Shown here one piece after another: positions 1,437-61,669 of a DNA stretch of 64,000 bases. Both the position numbers and the translations under genes were made by a program. This DNA comes from Chara braunii (Eukaryota; Plantae; Charophyceae): the NCBI GenBank assembly GCA_003427395.1, contig BFEA01000025.1:5118435-5182434 (forward strand), given 5' to 3'. The first letter of the stretch is position 1, and each line of letters begins with the position of its first letter. The notes below the pieces were generated by a model, which was not told the origin of the DNA, made no database searches, and saw only the letters and a program-made list of their open reading frames with translations.

Positions 1437-2234
1437 CTGCATGCGAATTTATAAAACAAAGTACAACAACAGCCAATCAGCACATTAGAGCGTGTCCATC
1501 ACACCCCATTCCCCGTGCGACAATGCGGGGTTATTTACATCTGCATCCGGAATTATTTTTATGCCAAATGCCACACACAGATGTAACCACCTGGTACCAT
1601 ATCAAGTAGAAGAACAGAGGTATGCGCCGCATTTGGGTAAACATCAAGGTCAAGTGGAATAGCGGCAGGGGAGAGTACGGCATTGGAGAGACCACTGTGC
1701 CTGTATGTCATGCTGCTGCATAGTGGAATGACTCGTCCTTCGCGGCCTCTGAAATCGGTTGCACTCCGGAGGCAGTGCGTTCTAGCAAATTTTGGGCCCA
1801 GGACAGCTCACATTGCAAGAGCACCGCGCCCTGAGGTAGTGTGGGGCCGTGCCAAGCATCGAAAAAGAGCTACCATGGACCGTCTTGGTGAAAGATTCAT
1901 CACTTCGCCGTCCAATCAGTCATTCACCGTGCCTTCGTTGCTGCCAAAGAGATGGAAGCCCAAGGTACCACTCTGCTGCCGATCTTTTTTTTTTCCCCCG
2001 ATGCTTCAGCACAGATTTGAACCATTATCGGCACTTTTATAGCGTGCAGGATTGCCTCATAACACTCTTCGCACAACCATTGAATCGCAGAAAAGGACAA
2101 AAAATGGCAGGCTGTGGGAGGAGCCAATATTATATAACTGCAAAATTATAGATTTCGCGAAGTTGTCCTCCTGGGAAGTGGAAGACGATACGAGGAACAG
2201 ACGCATAAAGGTATAAAACAGAGAGAGCATTATA

Positions 2235-2500
2235 CTATGCACGTGTACATAGTACATACCACATAGACATGGCCAGGTGCATAAATTCAAAGCCAGCTCT
2301 ATCACAGGATGCACCTGTACATAGTACATAGGACATAGACATGGCCAGCTGCACATGTACATGGTACATACGACATAGACATGGCCAGGTGCACGTGTAC
2401 ATGGTGCATACTACATAGACATGGCCAGGTGCACGTACACACAGTACATAGTCCATAGTTTATAGACATGGCCAGGTGCATAACCTGCACCTGCACATGA
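2235..2500. repeat. Minisatellite, ~38-bp unit (catagacatggccaggtgcacgtgtacatagta)
   Basis: About five diverged tandem copies. Confidence 0.85.
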
Positions 2501-3161
2501 CTTTTGAAAGCAAAGCACTGGACAGGAAACCCTGGAAAAGGCGAAAAAAACAGCTTCCGGTTCCTCTTGCTGTCTGCTCTGCTCACGTTCCATAGTTCAT
2601 TTGTTTTGCAAAATGCAATCTTCAGGAACGTTGATAGCCATGTGACTATGTATAACGGAAGCTGACTATATATATAACTTCAGGGCGGAATGCGAGTGCC
2701 ACATTACCTCCCTCTTGGATCTCTTTAGATCTCCTTCGCTGTATGTAAAACAAGGTCTGAAGGATGGAGCGCAAGCGCTAGATTCCTTCCCTCTTGAATA
2801 TCTTGAAAGTGCTACATTACTACGCTCTTTGATATCTTGAGAGATTTTGATTTTCCCTTTGTCGTAAAACTAGGTGTAAATGAACGGAAGTAGGCAGAGA
2901 AAAGATTGGCACATTGACTTCACTGATTGTTTAATTCCAAGCGTACTTTTAACAAATGTTTCCACTCATGTTTCCACTCTGATCTAGTGAAACATCGCAT
3001 AGAACTTGCACCGATCCATGGATTCCCTCATCAGGAAATTGCAACGAAGTCCTTAGCGAACTGAAACATCCGATAGACGTCACGGAGTTCAGCGACTTGC
3101 ACAATTAGCACAGACAAAAGAGATGCATGAAGAAGGGTGTAATAGATCACAAGTTCATTAC

Positions 3162-3229: not shown

Positions 3230-3239
3230 CTGCGCAGAG

Positions 3240-3490
3240 TTTCACAGCAAAGACGTTCAGCATTTTGGATACAGCGGCTCGTTGTGAGATCTTGAGTCAG
3301 AGAGAACAGGCACCACACTGTGGGACACTGGGACCAAACATTGGGACCTCAACGAAAAGGGAAGCGCACCACTTCCACAGCGAAGACGTTCAGCATTTTG
3401 GATGCACTGGCTCATTGTGAGATCTTGAGTCGGACAGAAGGGGGCACCACATTGGGGGACACAGAGACCAAACATTGTGACCTCAAAAAA
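3240..3490. repeat. ~133-bp tandem duplication next to the exon 18 acceptor
   Basis: agacgttcagcattttggat...tgtgagatcttgagtc...gaccaaacatt occurs twice. Confidence 0.85.
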
Positions 3491-5025
3491 AATGAAGTGC
3501 GCCCACTGTTGTCCTTTACTAATTATTCTGCTAACCATAGGGCGTCGCTCCACTACTCCGGAAATGCACAAAAGACAAATCATGGCGATGTATCTTTCCT
3601 TGTTCTAGCGGAAGATTCACTCTCGTTTTGCACATTTCGAGAGTGGTGGAGCGAGGCCCATAGTGACCTCAACAAAAATGAGGGATACATGATTCAATCC
3701 ACACAGCGCAACAAACCATCCCATACAACGCCCAATCACCCGGATCTTTCCTGAAACTCCTGCTACCTCATTCGTATGCCTTCTCCTCCATGCACTGACA
3801 GCCATTTCTCCAAAAATAGGTTGCTAGCAGAAAACGAGGAGAAGACGGTCCATGCAAGCTCAATCCGACACTAAAGGTTAATAAGTGGTGTCATTTTCGG
3901 CGAATTTTTCACCGAAACTCTCCCATATTTCCCTGAATTTTCGCTTTCTTTTTTTTTTTTTCCCGTGTGAGTAATATGTAAGTGCTTTAGGGTATACCTC
4001 TATTCAGTTTGAAAATGTTGTCAAAAACACACCGACTTCGGAGAAAAATTAGGCGGACTCCAGAAACTACTCCAAATAGGGTTTCGTAATAGGGTTCCCG
4101 GGGCGCCCCGCCCGAGTAGGTACCTCGCCCGGGATACCCCGGGCATGAAAAAAATCCACCGAATTTTTTATTTATTTTTTTCGTCTGCAGGGCCAGAGTG
4201 CTGCCCAAATCCGGTCTCATTTTTTATTTTCGGGCATATTGTTTTTTGGGTGCTGGGGGGGGAGGGGGGGGGGAAGGACTATGGCGGGACGAAGGGGGGG
4301 GGAGGGAGGGGGTCTGCCGGCAGGGAGGAGAGAGGCGGTCTGCCGGGAGGGAGGAGGGAGGCAGTCTGCCCGGAGGGAGGAGGGAGCACTATGGCAGGAG
4401 GTACGAGGAGGTAGGAGCAGAACTCTTCCGAAGACGGAGGGGCAGAACTCTAACAAAGAAGAAAAAAGAAAGAAAGAAGAAGAAGAAGACTAAGAAGACC
4501 TGTAGAGAATAAGAAGAGGAGGAAGAAGATGATGGAGAGGGACAGAAGGAAACAGCACGAAGACAAGGAAGAGGAAGATGAAGAAGAAAGAAAGGAGGAG
4601 GGAGGAAGCCTATGGAAGGAGGGGGAAGGAGACTGATGGAGGGAGGGAGGAGGACAGCCCGGCTGGAGGTAGTCGATATGAAGAAGACGAAGATGAAGAT
4701 ACAAAGAGAAAGAAGAAAAAGAAAAACCTTACCTGAGTTGGCGATGGCAGCACAGGCAGTCTTCGTTGGGAGTGAGGATGGCGCGGCCGGAAGGCAGCAA
4801 GGTGACTACAACGACAGCTCAGCAGGGAGACGATGACGATGGCGCAGACGACCACGGCAGGGCAACAACCATGGCACGGTCCATAACAGCGGGGGAACGA
4901 CGAACTGGCGAGAGGGGGCAGGGCGGAGGGAGGGGCCAGGCGGTAATTCCCAAGATTCAAATTCAAAATCTTGGGACTTCCGCACCGTCGATCAGACCTC
5001 CAGCCCGCGCGCAAATTTTCGTTTC

Positions 5026-5150
5026 CTAGCGGTTTCAGTGGTGGCACTGTGGGGGCCCAGGTGCCTGGCCGGAGGGCTCACACGGCCGAGCACCCCAAGC
5101 GCCCTTCGGGGCGACCTGGGGTGGCCCGGGCGCGAGGGCTGAAAAGCTAG
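5026..5150. mobile_element. Small MITE-like element with CTAG termini
   Basis: ctagcggtttcag...ctgaaaagctag imperfect TIR, flanked by gtttc on both sides. Confidence 0.55.
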
Positions 5151-5504
5151 GTTTCATAGAGGTTTTGAGATTTCTTTTTTCTTTTTTTGTTTTGCCTTTT
5201 TTTTTTTCACTTTTGTATTATGAGCCTGCATTGTTTTTTCGTGAAATTTTCAACGACATTGCTTGTGACGATTCAGCAAACAAACCCGAATTTTGGGCCT
5301 TCCATTAACCATCTCTCACACTAACACATATCAACACACCATCCAATACACAAAGCACAGCCCTTTTCTCCCTGCTGTATCCTGAAACTCCTGCTACCTG
5401 TCTTCCTACTCTTCCTCATAATTCACCGCTGCCTCCAAGGACCGACAGTCATTCCTCCACAAACAGTTGGTTAGCAGACAAAGAAGGGCAGACAGCCGCC
5501 ATAC

Positions 5505-17219: not shown

Positions 17220-18954
17220 CTGCGAGCCCAACCACATAGATGACCACAGAGGCACAGTGACAGTTGAAGCGATGGCAGAAGAATTCACAAATAGGAACAC
17301 CGCATTCGGAAATAATTACTCTGGACAGCCACTGTCTTCACCGATCCGGAACATACGATCATTATAATCGTATTCCGGGCAACTTTCAGTCCAGATGCGG
17401 CAAAGACCACCATGCGTTCTGTTCAGGGGGATACTGTAAGAACCCGATCACAATGAACCGTGGTCCTTGTATGATACAGAAGCATTGCTTGAACCGTGGT
17501 CCTTGTGTGCTATAGAAGTATTAGCCCATTGTCACGATGTGGCTGGATTTCTAACCTCTGTTAGAAAACACAACATTTGCTGGCATGCTCAGGATTCCCA
17601 CCGGAAATTTTTCCTTCTCAGCACCAAAATTGGGCCTTGTATCATATTTACAAAGTGGTGATAGGAAATACCAAAATCAATAAAGGGAGGGCGATAAGGG
17701 ATCCCGCAGAACCGTGATGGGACAAGCATTCTACATTCAGCACCTCTATTGTGGATGATAAAAAATATGGTGAGCTAAGTAAAAGGATTTCACTATTATC
17801 CACTCTAGTTCCAGTTCCAGTCCCAGACCCGGTCCCATGTCCTACAGTCCACTGTCCCTAAGTCAGAGCTAAGTAGAACAACAGGCGTTGTAGGCAGATT
17901 CCGGTAGCTACCAGCAGGCATAGGGAAAAGCTGATAGAAGTGGGTAGGGCCCTCTGAGTGTCACTCACTCCAGTCAGCAGCAAAGCCCCAGGAATGTCAG
18001 GGAATTTCCAAAAGCAACAAACCTTGGCCGAGGGACGTGCCCATAACTGCTCGAGAGAGTCCAATATAAAAAGTCCAGTTATTCAAGTCGTAAAAAAACA
18101 CATATTCACTTGTGTGACTAAGGGGGAAGTGCCGCTGTGCTATTTTAGGATGCAATGTTGGTCAATGCTGTAGGTAGTAGTCTACCGCACATGCTCATAG
18201 CTAGGTCAAGTGAGAGAGAGAGAGAGAGGGAGTGACATTGACAGGCATTCACAGCAAGCGTGAGGCAGAGAGAGAGAGACGGAGAGAGAGAGAGGGGGGG
18301 GGAGATAGAGAGAGAGAGAGAGACCATGCCTGAGTGCTGAGGCAGAGAGAGAGAGACGGAGAGAGAGAGAGAGGGGGGGGGAGAGAGAGAGAGACCATGA
18401 ATGAGTGCTGAGGCAGAGAGAGAGACGGAGAGAGAGAGAGAGAGAGAGAGAGACCATGCCTGAGTGCTGAGCACTGGCTCACAGCGACAGCCTCCCAGCA
18501 TGTACAAAGACAATTTTGTGTAATTGAGATGATTGGCAGAGACTATCTTCGAGTTCACGTCTGACGCGAGTGTGTGCAAATTTCTCTGAGAGTCGTGTGG
18601 ATGGTGTGGTGTCGCATATGGCTGGGCTCACAGCATAAGCATGTGGTGATACCCGTGCTTACTGAACCCAAATACAGCACAACGCGAGGGAAAATGAGCG
18701 TCAATGCATCCACAATAGATTCATCAAAACGCAAGACCAATCAGCCGGTCAACCCAAACCAGAGTCTTCACAAGCTCAACGTTCAGCTCCTTCATGCTAG
18801 CTGTACCCTATGTCCTGCTGGGCTACGCCGGTGACCAGACAACAACAAGAACATGGACGAATAGAAGGCAAAACATGCAGATCCAATTGGGCAAGAACTG
18901 AACATCAAGCTGTGAACCCGAGCAAAGAGGAAACCCAACGGCGAAGATCGGTAC

Positions 18955-27944: not shown

Positions 27945-27989
27945 CTGTTGCGTCATCGCTTGTGGAGGCATAGCTGGGAGACCTGGAAA
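27945..27989 (-). CDS. U2AF65: U2AF65 exon 7 (FPGLPAMPPQAMTQQ)
   Basis: Conserved QAMTQQ before RRM1; TTGCAG acceptor, donor CAG|GTGGGT. Confidence 0.93.
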
Positions 27990-29791: not shown

Positions 29792-30639
29792 CTCGGGCCT
29801 GTATATACCACTGTCAACATTTTTTTTTTCTGGCACGGGAGTGAACAGCATCATACGCCGCCGCTGCACGATCAACCTAACAAGCACTGAATGCTCTTGT
29901 TAGCTGTCCGCTGTTTCGCAAGCCACTACAACTCCAACAACGAACAAGGCCCATATGTGCCTTCCAGACAAGATTGCAAATTCAATCGAAAACTTGTGGG
30001 TGCCGGTAAGGACCAGTCCTTCATAGGAAAAAGGGAGAAGGACGATTGGATCGTAATAAAATTAAATAAATCTTTCACCCACTACCACCAAACTAATACC
30101 AAATCCAATCCCTATGCCTTAGAATTAAGCCACCATACCACTCTTCGTGAGTTCACTATCATCGTAACGCACCAAACCCTGGCAAAGGGTCAGGCGGCCT
30201 GCTTCCAAAGAAATCAGCAGCAGACTCGTGTGGGTCAGTACGCCGAACCTCTTGCTGCACCTTGAGTACATCATACTACCACAGTTCTCGGAATCCAAAA
30301 AAGAAGAGAGGTGATTTGATGCCCTTAGATCTCCATCCTCGATTGCCTCAAACATGTATCCCAGGTACAGACTGGCCCCTAGCGACTGACAATAACATCT
30401 CCGGATGAAATGGGGTCCAGCCAGTACCCACTTCATCTGGATTTGGCTCAACAAGTCTGAACCACAGAAAACAAGAAACGACAAAACAAAGGTAACAAGA
30501 AACAAAAAAAAAATGAAGTATCCGGAAGCCAGGCAGGCACAACAGACAAAAGGTGGGGAGAAGAGCAGAGGCTGCCACACATCAACAAGCCAGAGCTGTG
30601 GAAACTCGAAACGATGAGAAGCAAAGTAAGATTACTCAC

Positions 30640-30714
30640 CCAGAGGTGGAAGGCTGTTCGGAGTAGAGACTTGAGTCGAAGGAGGCAGAATCGCAGCTGG
30701 TGAATTTACAATAC
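30640..30714 (-). CDS. U2AF65: U2AF65 exon 5 (GIVNSPAAILPPSTQVSTPNSLPPL)
   Basis: TTTAG acceptor, donor TGG|GTGAGT, 75 nt, phase 1 to 1, Pro-rich linker; frame-neutral so could be skipped. Confidence 0.75.
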
Positions 30715-33700
30715 CTAAATTGGAAAACGTCAGCCTCAACAATCACCGATCAACAACACTGTACACACTGCAACAATATCAAAGTGTACAGAGTGCTGCG
30801 AACATAGGATGGAGGGGAGCAAAACAGAGTGATGCAAAGCGAAGCTACGTTCGACAGACGAACGAGCCCATAAAGTGGCGTGACATAAACCAGACAGACA
30901 ACCGTGTTTACCGTCAAAAAAACACCCAAGTCTAACGCATGGATGAGACCTACGTACGATTCCTGTCAAAGAAAGACCTGCCCTCATCTTTTGCCTTGCT
31001 GCCAGCTCTGGCTGCTTCATCCAATGACTTACAAAGACCGAGTGGACTCTGATAAAAGGAGATGGAGATAGAGTCGAAGAGGAAGGGAAACGCCAAAAAG
31101 GACAAAGACATTCTTCGTAGAACAAAGGACAAGAAGAAGCCAGCCACCTCGTTCCAGGAATCATTGGCAAGAAGCAGAATGGCCAGATTTGAAGTTCGAG
31201 ATGAGGGAGTTGGGTGAAGATGATCAGGGATGCACCAAACGGAGACAATCCTCTCCCTCGCTGTAATTACAGGGGCCTTCGAAGACAGGTTCGTAGACAG
31301 GCAAGGACAGATATGTGGCTGATGATGCCTTCCGCATCCACAAAACAACAGAGCAAAAAAGACATCACAAACGACAAACAAATCCCACAACAAACGACAA
31401 ACGACATGCGAACGAATGAACAGTGTCCCTCAGTCACCATTTGTGGCGTGCTTCTTCTTCTTCTTCTTCTTCTTCTTCTTCTTCTTCTTCAGGTAGATAT
31501 GACCACAGACCCAATAATTATATAATACTTAATATCATGATGAATATAATTATTGCCTGCCTGTCAAGAAAAAGCTCATTTCACTTAGTTGCCATCCAGC
31601 AGTGTCCTTATCAATGGCATCGTAAAATCAACCCTTCAGGTTGGAAAATTGTCAATATTCCATGCTCAACACAGTGCCTGCTCCACTACACAGCACTCCA
31701 CATGTATTTGGAGGCTTCTCTTTTCTCTGGACAAGGTGCGTTTGTTCGGACGAGTCCAACATTTTGAACGTATCTGGTCCTCAAAAGATCCAAATGCATG
31801 TAGATTAATGTGTATAGGAGCGAGGTCCACAGTTCCACCTATTGATTGATGTGAGTGTAATTCTGAAATCAATGAAGACTAGATTCTAAAACACAAATGT
31901 GCCTCTGAAAAAAACAACTCCGCAAAAATCTCGCAAGTGCACCACCAACAAGCATCCCTTGTCCCCTTGTATGAGTTAACAGCAAAGAGCTCAGAGAGGA
32001 TAAAAGCCCCCCAAAAAGCACAAAAGCCCGTAAAGGGGGGGACTGCGGGGGGGAATGCCAAACACACAATTAACGAGTGAATAAATTGTCTTATTGCACA
32101 ACACTTGGGGTGCACACAAAAGAAGAAGACTTTGTCAGGGTGCCCCTGTGAGGCTACCACCACCAGCACCTTACTTCAAATGAGGACAACCTCAAGAGAG
32201 AGGGCACAGTGATAGTCCCAGAAGGGACTTGCAATCTTGAGGCAGTGTGCCAGCCTGACGAATTGTGACATAAGAAGTGTGTGGGCAGAGTCGTCAAGCT
32301 TCCGTTCCACTGTGACCGTCTTGCCTTTTTCCGTGTTTTTCAGCTGGTCGTCGGTCGAGGGAAAAGAGAACAAACAGATAACACTTCCTGGAGAGCACAC
32401 ACTTTCTGCAGAGTACGAGATGCAAAAGCACTAACAAGTCCTGAGAGCGGAAAAGGAGAAAAATGGCATGCCGGAAACGCAAATTATTATAATGTAATAA
32501 CACACCCAACGACGGGTCATTTGTCAGAACGTTCAGCACAAAGAAGTGCCACGAGGATGGCAGAACAAGGGCACAGTAAGCAGCACAGCAACCTGTGTCC
32601 AACTACCCGGGCCCGACATCATTAAAGGGGGGGCACAAATACCCCCCAACAACGCTGATTTCATTTGTACGGAAGCCAAGGAATCAAACACGAGAGGCTT
32701 ACAGCCAGATCATGCCCCAGCAATTGCTGAGGGAATCAGATTTGCATCACTTGCTAACTACCAGTAGGCTTGCGATATAAAAAAAAAAAAAAAAAAAAAA
32801 AAACTTCTCTTACAAGTTACAACTGAACTTCTCTTTGGTCAGGACGGAGAGCGAGTTACAATCGGTGATACCAACGTTTGGGAAGTGATGGTGGCACGTC
32901 GAGGTGGTGGGTCACGTTCAGGAAATGACAAAACATGCAGGAAGCGAGAAGAGGAAGGTTGAGGTGGTTGGTCATGCTCAGGAAACAACGAAGTGTCTCC
33001 CAATTGCTCCGCGTCTGTGGAGCATGTCACCAACAGAGATATGACGTTTTTGCGACACCAACAAGAGGTATGATAGGGATGATAATAATAGCAGACGTGT
33101 CCTAACTTCGAGCAAAACCGATGCAGAGGAGTGTTGCACAAAGGGATCGGCAAAACATTCGCAGACGGGTGGAACGAGGACCTTAGACAGATAAAGGCAC
33201 TGACAAAGCTGCGTGAAATGTTGCTGGCACATCGTTCTTCACAGATGATATATGTCTGACTAGTACTGTTGATACCATCCTGCTGTACATAACAAGGCCA
33301 GAAAAACATCGGTTGCCGGGGGGGGGGGAAGAGAGAGCAGGAGGGAAACACTCGGGCAGTGCTAAGAACAACGAACTCGGGAAAACGTCACTTGGTTGAT
33401 GGAAGCTGCTCAGGGAGATGCTGATGACCAGGCTCTGCTCCACAAGAGAGAGGAGAGAGGGGAGGGGGGGCGGGGGGGCAGGGGGGGGGAGGGGTGGAGA
33501 GAGAGATTGCTACCAAGGAAAGCAAAAGCTGCTAGAAGCATGCAAAGCAAGGATAGCAGCCATTGCAGGAGGCAACAGAGATTATATTGAAAACTTGACA
33601 AACTAGTGGTGGTTGAAGGAGATGGAGAAGATAACATTTTTGTACGAAAACTGCATCAAAAAGGAAAATACAGATAGAACTGCGTACGGACGTAACAGTG

Positions 33701-34062
33701 AAAAACAACCGCAGGAACGAGCTGACATATTGATACAGGCTTTTGCAGTACCCAAACATGGAAAACAGAAACAGAATGGCAGGACAAAAGAGACAGAAAC
33801 AAGGTGACAGGACAGTAGACAAAGGAGATTCAACCAGCTAGCTGAGAACAAATAGACCGCAAAAGGAGGACATGCAATGCATATAATAATATGCCCAGAC
33901 TATCAGAATGAGCACTTTACACAAAAGAAAAGAAAAAAAACAAAGAAAACAAAGACAACACCGCCAGAGTACACGATGGAAAAGAGAAGCAACCCAAATG
34001 GGACAGATAAGGTCCAAATGGGACAGACAGATGAGGCAAATCCCACTCCCTGTGGTACACAC

Positions 34063-34136
34063 CTGCAGGTTGTACAGGAGCTGGTGTGATGGTAGGCGCC
34101 CCTATATCAAACCCACTTGGCCTCTTGTTGCCGCCA
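34063..34136 (-). CDS. U2AF65: U2AF65 exon 4 (SGGNKRPSGFDIGAPTITPAPVQPA)
   Basis: Plant-type KRxSGFD motif; CAG acceptor, donor CAG|GTGTGT, phase 2 to 1. Confidence 0.92.
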
Positions 34137-34727
34137 CTGCTCAAAACACGCACACAACCATAATGGTCCAACAAAGACAGTCAGAACTAGAACTTCCAAA
34201 CAAAAAGAATGCGCATTTCATCAGAGTAACCGCCAGTAATTCACGACAACCTGGCATTCCCAAAATACGCACCTGGCTTGGTGCATGTCCAGTGACAGGG
34301 AGAATTCTAGTCGCTAAAAGCGCCAATGGACCCTTCACATAAGTTTCCCAAAAATGACATGTCAGGGATTACATCCCTTTCTTTCCTTAAAGAAACAGCA
34401 TTTCTGCGAATTCTCCTCAGCTCAAATGAAGAACATGATCCGCTCTGTTAAATATTAGGAACTTTGTTATTTCATTCTAGAACACCACACGCAAACATTT
34501 GAGCCCCTACAATGCATTTGGGGGAGGAGGACTGAAACTTTGCCCAGCAACATTTCCCATCACAAGTTCACAGCAGAAGCATCACAAGACAATTTTCCTA
34601 ATATTTTCGGCCAAACAACCTTTGCAGGTGGACAATCCCATCGGCAAAAAGTATGTTTCTCCAAAAACAAAGGCACCCCGCACTCAAGAGTAAACTCTCT
34701 GAGATTGGCAAACACACGTTCAGATTC

Positions 34728-56311: not shown

Positions 56312-57383
56312 ATAATCCGTAGTCTGAGGTCTCCCACAGTACCTCTGGTCGCGCCCTACTTAGGCATAATTCCCCATTTTTCAGGCCCCAGCGGGCATCC
56401 TCACACTATATTCCCTCACAACAAATTGTAGCTGGCGGACAGTGCACTCGCAGAGGGTTTCCACCATTCAGGTTTATTTCACCTTATGGGCTCGGTCCAT
56501 AATTCCCGACGGGTGAGATAGAGAAGCTTTGCCAACATCTCGAGCACGCAGGAGTCCGAACGGGCCCGCCAACAAAAAGAGACGCATGCTCTCGGTCCTT
56601 GGCCGCCGTGTCGACCCTGAAGAGGTCAAAAATCTTATGCCACCCGACTAGCTCTACGGCCTGGTCAACGACTTCTAAGTCCGATGCTGCATTCGCTCAA
56701 GGAACGCCGAAGCATAAAAAAAAAATAATAACTTCAGTAAATAATAAAATATTTGGGAAATTTTAAACGTCGATAAATGACAGGCGGAACTACAAAACCA
56801 CCAGCACCGCCCCTTCCTTCTAATGACAAAACCAAGGGGGATGGCCCCGCCGGACCTTCAACCCCTCGGTTTCTTCATACCGCTCCAATACCCCTGCGCT
56901 GCCGCCGACTGGCTTCGATCCCTGAATCCCTCAGTTGAAAGTCACATACCGTAACCAATAGTGCTAGACCCAGCCTGGGTCTAGCGCTAACGGACACCTA
57001 AATAATCGAATATTGCGCGACTCGCGGGTCTACCAAAGCATTTTCAAAATTTTCATCGTTATCGATGTCGTTCTCCATACGTACGCACAAGTTAAAGGCA
57101 AACCCATCAATCAATCGAGACATAATCTTTTTAATCATAGTTTAATCAGAAATAAAAATTTGGCCCGCAATTACTCCGACCTCACCATCATCAGTAAGCA
57201 GCGAGATCACAGATGCCTTAAACCTGCGCGCTCACACACTCTCTACTCTAGTCAACCATTCAGTCAAATGTAAACCACAGACGCAGTCGCCTCGCGCGGT
57301 ATACTCAAACTTCAAACCAAATTTATTTTCTGTCGCTTACAAAAACCAAGGCGGATGCCCTTGTAAGGGTATTCGCACCGACA

Positions 57384-58195
57384 TCGGCGTTGTGGATTGT
57401 TTACTTATGCGATCATTCCGTTTTGTCGTTGTAACAAGGAGGACGTATTGGAGATTGAAAAATTCTTTATTTGTTTGTCGTGTCCTGCTCTGAATACTAG
57501 AGATAAGCCCATACATTCGAGGAGGTGTATACTTGGGCTCCGAGAAAGGATCCGGAGAAGGAAGGGATGTGGTGTTGAGACTGTTGATTCGTTAGGTTCC
57601 TCAGTTGGTGAGTATGGCTTTGCGTGTACGTTTAACGGTGAGAATGGTGAAAACTCCATGAGTCTTGTCCGGATTTTGAAGGGTTGTGTTGATAAGAAAG
57701 TTCGTTGCTTAACTATAAAGTATGCGGGTAGTAACAAATTGGTTGACGGATGGAAAGTCTTGAAGCGTTCGTTTGGAGTGAGTATGGTATATTCTATTTT
57801 TGGAGTGAGGGAGTTGCGTTATGTGGTGCACGAGAATGACTTAGGGGAGGTTTAACTTTGAGATTTGACCCTTTTATTCCATTTATGAGTCGATCTGTGA
57901 CTTTGAAAGTTCCATTGGTTGGCTTCTTGAAGAACCCTGGTAGTAAAGTAGATCTGAGATCTTGGGATTTTGATGGCTTGATTGCTGCCTTCACCGTTGT
58001 TCGCACTTTCAGCGAGAAACGCTCACGTTGTCGATTACGTTGTCTGTTGTCCAACTGTATTCTTGCGAGATTTTACATTCATGTTCTGAAAAGAATTGTA
58101 ATTCGTCTTGTGACGTCTGATGCGCGTCGCTACATACACTAAGGGAAGAAAGAGAGTTCTTTACGTAAAGAGAGAGAAATCGTGATGGAATACCA
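57384..58195 (+). pseudogene. 3' half of GIY-YIG and continuation of ORF2, truncated before any recognisable RT
   Basis: CGLFTYAIIPF...LEIEKFFICLSCPALNT (E...I...PxLN motif). Confidence 0.7.
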
Positions 58196-59029
58196 ACAAA
58201 AAAATTGTGGCAAATTTTATGACAGGATTATCACATGTGGGCCCCATTTATAAACCGTTGGAACTGTGTTAATAAACTGTTTGGCGGGGGAGGTNNNNNN
58301 NNNNNNNNNNNNNNNNNNNNNNNNNNNNNNNNNNNNNNNNNNNNNNNNNNNNNNNNNNNNNNNNNNNNNNNNNNNNNNNNNNNNNNNNNNNNNNNNNNNN
58401 NNNNNNNNNNNNNNNNNNNNNNNNNNNNNNNNNNNNNNNNNNNNNNNNNNNNNNNNNNNACACAAAAATTGTGGCAAATTTTATGACAGGATTATCACAT
58501 GTGGGCCCCATTTATAAACCGTTGGAACTGTGTTAATAAACTGTTTGGCGGGGGGGGTGTCATGTGGTCCACCAGAAGTGAAGGAATTCAACGTTGATCA
58601 CAGATGTCGTAAACAGAATATAGTGTTGAAAAGTTGTTGGAAATTTATTGACCAATTATTGAACATTGCACTTCTTGTTGGGGAAAAAAATCGAAATTGT
58701 TGTTCGTGTCGTACATTTGTGTGGTTTCTTCTCATCTGAGTGTCTGTGTGTGTTTGTGGCTGATGAGAGTGTGACAAAACAATGCACATCATTATGGCAA
58801 TACGAGGATCCGACTGGTCCGTTGTCATTATGGCAGGTCAAGGCACGTAAGGTTGTTGTACTTGTGGGGAGGTATGATAGAAACCCGACCTTGTCCTTAG
58901 AGATCGTGACCTTGCCATCAGAGGGAGGCAACAACGCAGTACATAAATTACAGAACCTTGGTCAACTTCTCCACTTTTTTGTCCAAGAGAAAGTTAACAA
59001 CACTACAGTCGTATTTTTCATCACCACTT

Positions 59030-59420
59030 CAAGACACCTTTCACCACTTCAGGATGCAGCCTGCCGAAACAAGTGGTTTTCGGGGTCTTCGGACCTTTCA
59101 CCACTTCATGACGATTCAGGTCTGAAAATCCTGAATGGTCCTGAAGTGGTTAAAGTTCCGAAGACCCTGAAAACCACATGTTTAGGCAGACTGCATCCTC
59201 GAGTGGTGAAGGGTGGTTTTCATGGTCTTCGGACCTTTCACCACTTCAAGACCATTCAGGATTTTCAGACTGCCAAAAACTCTCACTTGACCACTTCAGA
59301 ACACCCTTCAACACTTCAGGATGCAGCCTGCCTGAACAGGTGGTTTTCAGGGTCTTCGGACCTTTTACCACTTCAGAACTATTCAGGATTTTCAGACTGC
59401 CCCAAACTCTCACTTCAGAA
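59030..59420. repeat. Mixed inverted and direct repeat cluster; 59040-59210 folds into a long hairpin
   Basis: ttcaccacttcaggatgcagcctgcc...attcagg versus cctgaat...ggcagactgcatcctcgagtggtgaa, plus further direct copies. Confidence 0.85.
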
Positions 59421-60388
59421 TTTTCATTCCTGAATTTTCAGCTACCCGATAACTGCTTGTGTTTTCTCCTACTGCACGATACACTATGCTCTTTTACATT
59501 TGTCGATCTTTGAGTCTTCGTGTACTCCTGAGATGCAATAGATACTGAATGCGAGAGAGAATGTTTTGTTGACGATGGTCGAAGGGGGGGGGGGGGGGGG
59601 GGGGGGAGCAAGAGAGATAGAGGCGAGAGACAGGAAGAAGAAGGAAAAAATGTGGCATGTGCGGTTTGCTTTTGGTGGAAATGAACCAAATTTATGAAGT
59701 GGCACGCAGTAGCCAACGTTTCTTTTTTTCTCTTCTGGCTTGCGATAATTTATTCTACGGATGGACGCATGCGGAAGCCTCAAGAATATGGTTCGCTGCC
59801 CTGCTACAAGCAAGGTTCACTACTGCGTGACACAATTTCACAAACATGTCAGTCCAGAGAGAGAGAGAGTGACACGCAGTAGCCAACCTTTCTTCTTTCC
59901 TCTTCGGACTTGCGGCAATTCATTCTACGGAGAAACGCATGCCAGAGCCTGAAGAATATGGTTCACTGCCCTGCTACAAGCAGGGTTCACGACTGCGTGA
60001 CACAATTTCTCCAACGTATCAGTCCAAGAGAGAGAGTGACGCGCAGTAACCAACCTTGCACCGACGACAACCAATAAGATTTGCAGGCTGTGGGTGATGT
60101 TTGTCAACCAGATCTTTTCATGTTTTTGGTGTGCGTAGTTCTCTTTACGGTCACTGCGGCGAAGTTGTTGTAATGATCCTTATCTTTTCTTTGACGAACT
60201 ATTTCCATGTGCAAACTGTGAGGTCTTTATATATCATGGTGTTAACACATTACATAGTCGCCCACTCTTAAATAAGACAATGATTTGTACACAACGGATT
60301 GTACAATATTGTATTATAAATAACACAGCATATGCTGTACAATCATTGTTTGAGTATCGTACTTCACAGTCATTATCTCCGTTTGTAC

Positions 60389-60423
<35 letters not shown>

Positions 60424-61669
60424 CAACATGCAATGACAGTGACCTCATGCAACTCTTGCTGGCATATTTCGTTGTGAAGCTTCTGATTCACACCAGTGTC
60501 TCGCCCTCCCCTCCCCCGCCCACTGTTCAAGGTCTGGCACACAAACTTTCTCTATCCCTCTCCCCGTCTCTGCCCCTCTCACGGATTGGCGCAATGAACT
60601 CCAAGTCGAAATCGTCATCTGTTATCGTTATGTTATTTGACCCACTCCTCTGGACAAGAGAGACGGTTAACGGGGGCCCAAATATTTGTCGTTTTCGTTG
60701 GCAATTGCGGTGCAAATTTCATCGAAATTTTTAAAAACAAACGATATGAGACCATAGTGCAAACATAAAAAAAGGAAACAGGCAAAAAAAAACGAAAAAA
60801 AAAATTAAAAAATACTATGAAACCCTAACACAAAGACACTGTCCGAGTCAAAATGAAGCGTCCAACGAAGTCAACAAAATACCAACTTTTTCATTATTGA
60901 TCCAAACATGTCAAAACTGCACACATGACGTACCCTAAAGCACATATGTATCACACAAAAAGAAAAACAAGAAAAAAAGCAAAAAATCAGCACAATATGA
61001 TAATTTTAGTGCAATTCGGTGCAAAATTCGTCGAAAATAACACCCTTGGTTAACCACGTGTGCTGGACAGAAGGCATGCCAACTCGAAATAATGCAACGA
61101 CCTTATCAGAAGCAGATGCAGCGCGGTCCAGCTTGAAGATCGAAAAACTCATGACTGTGTCGCGGTTCCGGACAGATGAAGTGATATCCTGCTTTATACA
61201 TGTTAATTTTTGTATTTGGTCTGTCGCTCTACTGGTCTTTGCTGTCTGCTCGACTTCACATTTGAGAACCATTTCTGCAAAATTCAGTTGCTGCAGCGTC
61301 ACGCCAAGGTTCGTGCCGTCCCTTCTCATCTGAAAAACCTTTGTGAGTGTCGTCTTGAATGAAGGTGTGCCCCGAGTATCGTTACTGCTCCGTCTCTATG
61401 TTTTATCATCCTTCATTTGTGCTTGCATCTTGTTGTGAGTAGGGAGTTTGTGATCCATTTGTTGCGATCGGACAAGCTGGAGACCGTTTTCTGTCCAAAA
61501 CCAATGCTTTCGTTGCCATGTTATTTCTCCACGCACTATTGTCATCATCCTGTTGCACTGGAAGTAATCTGGGCAAATTGAGCATTGTTTCTAAGCTGAA
61601 TGGCTCAGTGCCCTGCCCATATTTTTATTTCTTTTGAAAACAAAGTCAGAAATGATTAAACTTTGAACA

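What the first reader, a model, noticed from the sequence alone, without database searches (positions are those of the whole stretch)
30715..34062. Intron 4 is a bank of decoy-like 3' splice sites: candidate U2AF65 autoregulatory sensor
Unlike most introns here, it has no repeat element I can recognise, and it is pyrimidine-rich on the sense strand. Py-tract plus YAG sites end at about 33842, 33529, 33283/33280, 32441, 32406, 32388, 32344, 31905, 31261 and 31049. These are the substrate of U2AF65 itself, placed between the RS/ULM exons and the RRMs. AS-NMD autoregulation of splicing factors is established; that this intron titrates U2AF65 is inference.
Basis: partly seen in the sequence, partly recalled or inferred. 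Interest (0 to 1): 0.75.

Follow-up and report, generated by a model that had tools for sequence, protein, structure and literature searches.

The report
Ancient off-switch inside U2AF65 intron
Intron 4 of this alga's U2AF65 splicing-factor gene is not a bank of decoy splice sites but holds one weak splice entry site that RNA reads show is used and that leads to an early stop codon, and a site of like layout sits in the same intron of moss-like and flowering-plant genes, so it is likely an ancient switch by which surplus U2AF65 would turn down its own production.

Summary
The window encodes Chara braunii U2AF65 (CBR_g28575). The intron boundaries and all 11 listed YAGs are real. The 'bank' is not: 4.78 versus 4.02 sites/kb in the other 17 introns (p=0.29), and below shuffles. 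No listed site appears among the read joints shown. It takes 6 of 15 exon-4 junction reads in two RNA runs and appears in a second organism. It adds 614 nt with a stop after 216 aa. The block is 254/255 identical in a third organism whose flanking exons carry 11 substitutions in 147 nt. The same layout lies in the orthologous intron of 22 of 22 land-plant loci, including Arabidopsis U2AF65B, and nowhere else in 1.4 Mb. Retention of that Arabidopsis intron is published; I found no account of the element. NMD and control by U2AF65 itself are inferred, not shown.

The parts
34063..34136 (-). Exon 4 of U2AF65 (after the RS region); its donor at 34062 is joined either to exon 5 or to the internal acceptor
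30715..34062 (-). Intron 4, 3348 nt, phase 1
   Evidence: joint skipping 3348 nt
31429..31434 (-). Branch-point-like motif (predicted branch A at 31430), about 100 nt upstream of the internal acceptor; A-C-T and the predicted branch A are invariant in 9 of 9 aligned sequences
   Evidence: lariat not mapped
31331..31428 (-). 98-nt AG-free zone, about 52% U and 29% G; predicted U2AF65 loading tract
31329..31331 (-). Internal weak acceptor AAG|GC, used in RNA
   Evidence: joint skipping 2734 nt, 3+3 reads in X21/X22, and one contig in X17 (organism B)
30715..31328 (-). 614-nt extension of exon 5 made by the internal acceptor (frameshifting, length mod 3 = 2)
   Evidence: depth 2.7-4.6 in X21, 0.3-6.3 in X22, and a 681-nt X17 contig
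31267..31269 (-). Premature stop codon after 216 aa, before all three RRM/UHM domains; 627 nt upstream of the next junction, 14 junctions downstream
31236..31328 (-). Predicted 93-nt poison/decoy cassette if the weak donor at 31235 is used; a TG|GT lies 83-98 nt behind the acceptor in 7 of 8 sequences listed
   Evidence: no read joint seen for it
31186..31440 (-). Ultraconserved block: 1 difference in 255 nt in organism C, against 11 substitutions in 147 nt of exons 4 and 5 in the same run (Fisher p=1e-4)
30640..30714 (-). Exon 5, 75 nt, phase 1-1

Best explanation
Intron 4 holds one deeply conserved, weak 3' splice site that is used in RNA and makes a stop-containing transcript, and it likely works as a feedback switch by which surplus U2AF65 would divert its own pre-mRNA to decay or retention. 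Shown: the site, its use, the early stop and its conservation. Inferred steps: (1) the predicted distant branch point and the roughly 100-nt single-stranded U/G tract form a long landing pad for U2AF65, while the AAG (not YAG) is a poor acceptor, so use of the site would depend on how much U2AF65 loads the tract; (2) the site lies 614 nt ahead of the normal acceptor and competes for the exon-4 donor; (3) when it wins, the product is an extended exon 5 (seen here), a short poison cassette (in public gene models of relatives), or a stalled, retained intron (moss-like contigs, Arabidopsis U2AF65B); (4) all of these stop before the RNA-binding domains and would be removed by NMD or held in the nucleus. 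The paralog CBR_g28571 keeps the same site, so cross-regulation between the two copies is likely.
For: Use: 6 of 15 listed exon-4 junction reads (95% CI 16-68%) in two stranded oligo-dT runs of one study, plus a contig in organism B. Stop; in 8 land-plant introns tested the AAG|GC site gives a stop after 10-19 codons. Conservation in close relatives. Paralog: P0007 matches 31330-31242; same-strand variant reads at 31282-31323 and two contigs ending at 31330; four of the listed base differences explain P0007's residue changes (my reading). Land plants: relaxed layout (branch motif plus AG-free U/G tract) in 22 of 22 loci that span the intron, about 9 distinct genes or alleles, and 0 elsewhere in 1,397,148 bases; strict AAG|GC version in 14 of the 22. 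A profile built without Chara finds 31434-31208 at E=7e-10, next hit E=0.46. L001 equals L002 plus only this intron, and L008 also keeps it while its downstream exons are joined. L078 is 100% identical over 100 aa to Arabidopsis U2AF65B and the element lies in its fourth intron, which is reported as alternatively spliced or retained (PMC4419537, PMC6899666, passages). Public protein models carry peptides from behind the site, e.g. P0165 joined directly after exon 4, and P0189, P0201, P0130, P0034, P0007.
Against: No NMD block, overexpression, knockdown or CLIP data were available, so neither decay nor control by U2AF65 is shown. Read counts are small and from one study. The layout pattern was defined after seeing these sequences, so 22 of 22 is partly circular; only the 0 off-target count is a fair test. 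The link to flowering plants is weak at sequence level: the angiosperm-only profile hits the Chara site at E=4.5, rank 5, and cross hits run from E=0.014 to 4.5. It rests on position and layout. L008 lacks the AAG at the aligned place and six allelic loci have a 2-nt loss there. PMC10145705 reports no U2AF65b splicing change in atu2af65a-4 or atsf1-2 (passage; region assayed not seen). A 40% share in steady-state poly(A) RNA is high for an efficient NMD target. U/G tracts also bind other proteins (recalled).
Confidence: 0.62

Rival explanations
1. The same conserved unproductive site is an input for other regulators (SF1, UBP1/RBP45/TIA-type or CELF-type U/G binders, SR proteins, light or temperature signals) that set U2AF65 levels, not a sensor of U2AF65 itself.
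For: The tract is U/G-rich rather than U/C-rich. U2AF65B is named among spliceosomal targets with altered splicing in sf1-4 (PMC12746065 passage; event not specified, supplements unreadable). The other regulated U2AF65A intron (11) answers to temperature, CDKG1 and light. A Riccia U2AF65 transcript shows habitat-specific retention.
Against: The element is precisely a 3' splice-site substrate in the gene of the protein that reads such sites, and no similar layout occurs in neighbouring genes or other introns (0 in 1.4 Mb). Loss of U2AF65b shifts U2AF65a splicing toward the functional form at its known event, so feedback within this family exists.
Confidence: 0.25
2. The site acts mainly as a decoy that stalls splicing and keeps intron 4 in nuclear RNA as a reserve; the junction reads are leakage.
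For: L001 and L008 retain the whole intron. Organism C has a contig running unspliced across the acceptor at depth 17.5 versus 63.7 for the spliced form and no joint to it. Arabidopsis U2AF65B retains intron 4. The model fits SF3B1 intron 4 (PMC6097662).
Against: In the window's species the upstream 2.7 kb is nearly empty (depth 0-1.6 outside repeats) while the acceptor is spliced in 6 of 15 reads. This rival is compatible with the best explanation as a lineage-specific outcome.
Confidence: 0.2
3. The truncated 216-aa RS/ULM-only protein is made and acts as a dominant-negative or scaffold.
For: The stop falls after the RS region and before the RRMs in every lineage tested, after 10-20 extra codons. 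The isoform is abundant in poly(A) RNA.
Against: The added peptides differ between Chara, moss-like and flowering-plant genes. The stop has 14 junctions and 1.9 kb downstream, a typical NMD layout (established knowledge).
Confidence: 0.07
4. One reading: many dispersed decoy acceptors across the intron together titrate U2AF65.
For: Pyrimidine content is second of 18. The site at 32441 has a 150-nt AG-free zone. 32399-32469 is held at 93% in organism C and a few reads lie at 32278-32404.
Against: Density equals background and is below shuffles; no joint shown at any of the 11 sites; conservation to land plants only at 31434-31208.
Confidence: 0.05

Closest known systems
Arabidopsis U2AF65B (At1g60900) fourth-intron alternative splicing/retention (PMC4419537, PMC6899666; passages seen)
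   Same: Orthologous intron; the element lies inside it
   Different: The passages seen report the event only: no acceptor, branch point, tract, mechanism or conservation outside Arabidopsis
Decoy exons of SF3B1 intron 4, OGT and ARGLU1 (PMC6097662; abstract and passages seen)
   Same: Conserved cryptic splice site in a large intron of a 3' splice-site factor gene; stop-containing; leaky junctions; retention in relatives
   Different: One site, not six; AAG with a predicted distant branch point; in Chara the seen product is an extended exon, not retention; no minigene or CLIP test
AS-NMD autoregulation of U2AF1, RBM39 and a low-confidence poison exon in human U2AF2 (PMC6547761; passages seen)
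   Same: U2AF-family gene with a stop-introducing event proposed as feedback
   Different: Different event type and position; homology to the animal events not tested
Arabidopsis U2AF65A intron 11 event (PMC6032924, PMC10145705; abstract and passages seen)
   Same: Alternative 3' site or retention in a U2AF65 gene; shifts on loss of U2AF65b and SF1
   Different: Last intron, alters the UHM; not the intron studied here
Plant DEAD and 45ABC intron elements (PMC12218528, bioRxiv 10.64898/2026.01.23.701338; passages seen)
   Same: Land-plant-wide intron elements overlapping an unproductive splice site in an RNA-processing gene
   Different: Those are hairpin structures; here no conserved fold, no Rfam hit, and U2AF is not mentioned in their main texts
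C. elegans uaf-1 exon with repeated 3' splice-site motifs (recalled; not returned)
   Different: No excess of repeated acceptor motifs here

Membership tests
Conserved AS-NMD feedback event of a splicing-factor gene | Host gene encodes a splicing factor | tested here: met
Conserved AS-NMD feedback event of a splicing-factor gene | Alternative event occurs in RNA | tested here: met
   6 of 15 junction reads, plus one contig in organism B
Conserved AS-NMD feedback event of a splicing-factor gene | Event introduces a stop well upstream of later junctions | tested here: met
   627 nt to the next junction, 14 junctions downstream
Conserved AS-NMD feedback event of a splicing-factor gene | Non-coding sequence around the site is conserved | tested here: met
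   weak at sequence level between algae/moss-like and flowering plants
Conserved AS-NMD feedback event of a splicing-factor gene | Isoform rises when NMD is blocked | not testable with these tools
   no such data set could be laid
Conserved AS-NMD feedback event of a splicing-factor gene | Event responds to and is bound by the host protein | not testable with these tools
   no perturbation or CLIP data
Decoy exon (SF3B1 intron 4 type) | Conserved cryptic splice site in a large (>1 kb) intron with junctions to a flanking exon | tested here: met
   3348-nt intron, upstream junction seen; land-plant introns are 433-1254 nt
Decoy exon (SF3B1 intron 4 type) | Cryptic donor used (complete cassette) | tested here: inconclusive
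   candidate at 31235; no joint shown; present in gene models of relatives
Decoy exon (SF3B1 intron 4 type) | Whole intron retained in otherwise spliced RNA | tested here: inconclusive
   not in the window's species; yes in L001 and L008 and in Arabidopsis U2AF65B
Decoy exon (SF3B1 intron 4 type) | Decoy sites required for retention in a reporter | not testable with these tools
   needs a minigene
Distant-branch-point acceptor | Long AG-free zone with first AG used | tested here: met
   98 nt; 2 of the 18 normal acceptors are as long (97 and 102 nt); first AG is the one joined
Distant-branch-point acceptor | Lariat maps to the distant A | not testable with these tools
   motif only
Bank of multiple decoy acceptors | Acceptor density above background | tested here: not met
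Structured plant intron elements (DEAD, 45ABC) | Conserved secondary structure with covariation | tested here: not met
   consensus energy -1.43 kcal/mol, 5 pairs; z=0.03; 0 Rfam hits

The most novel reading that the evidence does not exclude
This is a direct U2AF65 dose sensor kept from the common ancestor of charophyte algae and land plants (over 500 million years, recalled) and through gene duplications. It is built purely from 3' splice-site parts: a distant branch point, an oversized U/G tract and a crippled AAG. It would be among the oldest cis-regulatory splicing elements known in plants, and a natural reporter for the open question of how plant U2AF65 reads U-rich introns that lack a strict polypyrimidine tract.
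Probability: 0.4. Interest if true: 0.8.

Novelty: new member of a known kind. Interest (0 to 1): 0.6.

Why it matters
It supplies the cis-element behind an Arabidopsis event that was seen but not explained, and extends it to a charophyte alga and both of its U2AF65 copies. If U2AF65 controls it, it is the homeostat of the main 3' splice-site factor across streptophytes, relevant to flowering, temperature and light responses tied to U2AF65a/b. It is directly testable in Arabidopsis or moss with one short minigene. The class (poison or decoy events in splicing-factor genes) is well known, which caps the surprise.

Tried and rejected
Acceptor bank: three pyrimidine cut-offs, shuffles and a gene-trained matrix, none significant. 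Strong internal donors: none at the matrix cut-off (in-sample, so strict). Conserved RNA structure: none; a local hairpin with the AAG in its loop folds in Chara and L001 only, kept as a hint. Rfam: 0 hits. My recalled idea that the CDKG-regulated U2AF65A event is in intron 4 was wrong: it is intron 11. Profile of the part behind the AAG alone: top hit at the right place but E=1.7. The flowering-plant upstream mini-cassette has no detectable Chara counterpart. The pile at 33459-33494 (thousands of reads) is a poly-G artefact. Summed tblastn scores could not place loci taxonomically, so only L078 is named by identity; the others are called moss-like or flowering-plant-like. No RNA holder was listed as on record; X17 and X18 are 'RNA?' guesses, though both show exon-exon joints. 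No whole genome was held, so the paralog's DNA was not read. Introns 5-8 have no read control; only 4 of 24 listed runs were laid. Literature searches that found no description of the element. [quoted passage not shown] Supplements of PMC12746065 could not be read, and those of bioRxiv 120469 were not seen; either may list the event.

Full report
Gene. A minus-strand piece hits U2AF65 structures. Among 1396 homologs (120 listed), P0006, Chara braunii CBR_g28575, maps in 19 blocks. One GT-AG solution reproduces the protein exactly: 19 exons, 18 introns, intron 4 = 34062-30715. A paralog, CBR_g28571 (P0007), is 72% identical.

The observation. All 11 listed sites are YAG at the stated places, but 5 have 10 or fewer pyrimidines in 16. 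Density is 4.78/kb against 4.02/kb in the other 17 introns (p=0.29, rank 6 of 18), and 16 against a shuffle mean of 25.4. Stricter cut-offs give p=0.18 and 0.10; a matrix trained on the gene's acceptors gives p=0.10 and 0.38. The intron is pyrimidine-rich (0.590, second of 18), which accounts for the sites. It has little repeat (5.6% tandem, no self-match), but a segment near 31680-31830 draws divergent reads of both orientations. The bank is not there.

What RNA shows. I laid 4 of 24 listed runs on 30500-34300: two raw stranded oligo-dT runs with the same species label (X21, X22, one study; 6% and 12% of each read) and contigs of organisms B (X17) and C (X18). The exon-4 donor joins exon 5 in 5+4 reads and a new acceptor, AG at 31330-31329, in 3+3 reads: 6 of 15, CI 16-68%. 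Depth is 11-12 on exon 5 and 2.7-4.6 (X21) or 0.3-6.3 (X22) over the 614 nt behind the new site. Upstream of it depth is 0-1.6 outside repeat and poly-G piles. Organism B has the same joint on a 681-nt contig running to exon 5. The isoform stops at 31269-31267 after 216 aa, 627 nt before the next junction, with 14 junctions downstream.

Anatomy. The acceptor is AAG, whereas all 18 normal acceptors are YAG. It follows a 98-nt AG-free zone, about 52% U and 29% G, headed by a branch-point-like motif at 31434-31429. A weak donor candidate at 31235 would make a 93-nt cassette that still holds the stop; no read shows it. No conserved fold and no Rfam family were found.

Conservation. In organism C a contig matches 31186-31440 with 1 difference in 255 nt, while exons 4 and 5 in the same run carry 11 substitutions in 147 nt plus 2 gaps (p=1e-4). 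Only one record in that run is 99% or more alike, which argues against carry-over from the window's species. The paralog's public model contains a peptide matching 31330-31242, and same-strand variant reads and contigs end at 31330; I infer that the paralog uses the same site. A metagenome scan gave 80 loci (best 80 of 189). 22 span the intron after the exon-4 homolog, about 9 distinct genes or alleles. All 22 carry branch motif plus AG-free U/G tract there, and 14 fit the strict AAG|GC pattern. There is no hit elsewhere in 1,397,148 bases; the window has the one site plus one off-target at 61010 under the relaxed pattern. The pattern was drawn from these sequences, so the specificity is the fair test. 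Independently, a profile from 8 land-plant sequences finds 31434-31208 at E=7e-10, and the two moss-like ones alone at 1.5e-14. The six flowering-plant ones alone do not (E=4.5, rank 5), and cross hits are weak (E 0.014-4.5). So Chara to moss-like is homology by sequence; the step to flowering plants rests on position and layout. L001 is L002 plus only this intron, and L008 keeps it too. L078 is Arabidopsis U2AF65B (100% over 100 aa) and the element is in its fourth intron. Of 240 stored proteins, several public models carry peptides from behind the site: P0165 directly after exon 4, and P0189, P0190, P0192, P0196, P0201, P0188, P0180, P0130, P0034. Their RNA support is unknown to me.

Mechanism. 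Shown: a conserved weak acceptor, its use, the early stop. Inferred: the long tract loads U2AF65 and the poor AAG makes use of the site dose-dependent, so surplus protein shifts the exon-4 donor to the dead-end site or stalls the intron, and NMD or nuclear retention removes the product (0.62). Rivals: control by other factors (0.25), retention decoy as the main mode (0.2, compatible with the first), truncated protein (0.07), dispersed bank (0.05). Against the best reading: no perturbation data; few reads from one study; a high steady-state share for an NMD target; and one report of no U2AF65b splicing change in u2af65a and sf1 mutants (PMC10145705, passage).

What is known. Alternative splicing or retention of Arabidopsis U2AF65B intron 4 is reported without mechanism (PMC4419537, PMC6899666; passages). 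The studied plant event is U2AF65A intron 11 (PMC6032924 abstract and passages; PMC10145705 passages and supplement search; PMC545797 and PMC6746916 passages). Decoy exons: PMC6097662 (abstract and passages). Human U2AF1/U2AF2/RBM39 feedback: PMC6547761 (passages). Plant structured elements do not mention U2AF in their main texts. Further passages gave no account of the element. Eight searches found none, but Burgess and Freeling 2014 was not held and some supplements were unseen, so the flowering-plant part may be catalogued. The uaf-1 comparison and the divergence age are recalled. The scan's own notes hold nothing on this element.

Verdict. Observation partly confirmed, interpretation partly supported. 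The real feature is a single, ancient, unproductive 3' splice site: a new member of a known kind, interest 0.6.

Noticed in passing
window 30640-30714 and 27945-27989 (exons 5 and 7): Both are frame-preserving (75 and 45 nt). Exon-5-like peptides occur in some bryophyte proteins (P0094, P0105, P0034, P0040, P0107), which lack the exon-7 peptide; the other class has the reverse, and Chara has both. Possibly old cassette exons split between paralogs.
   Followed up: partly
L016:9230-9274, L028:3018-3058, L075:2299-2335, L078:1620-1657, L070:7899-7936: A second conserved 37-45 nt mini-cassette upstream of the element in flowering-plant introns, included in several public protein models; no Chara counterpart found.
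   Followed up: partly
Could be a minor second cryptic exon.
   Followed up: partly
window 31451-31490: A 13-copy GAA run on the sense strand sits just upstream of the predicted branch point; not seen in the land-plant introns.
   Followed up: no
window 31680-31830: Divergent reads of both orientations and several contigs pile here: likely a multi-copy element.
   Followed up: no
window 1437-3161 and 17220-18954 (introns 18 and 10): Their acceptors have 102- and 97-nt AG-free zones. Intron 18 is the last intron, the position of the regulated Arabidopsis U2AF65A intron 11.
   Followed up: no
window 3230-5504 (intron 17): Highest density of strong pyrimidine-YAG sites in the gene (12 versus shuffle mean 3.0 at >=13 of 16), probably from simple repeats.
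   Followed up: no
window 33144-33206: Two short organism-B contigs match with 1 difference; meaning unknown.
   Followed up: no
P0006 and P0007: The two Chara U2AF65 genes have neighbouring locus numbers and the same longest-contig length, suggesting they lie close together.
   Followed up: no
window about 56500-59500: Several long stop-free frames that by eye look like retroelement remains; not tested.
   Followed up: no
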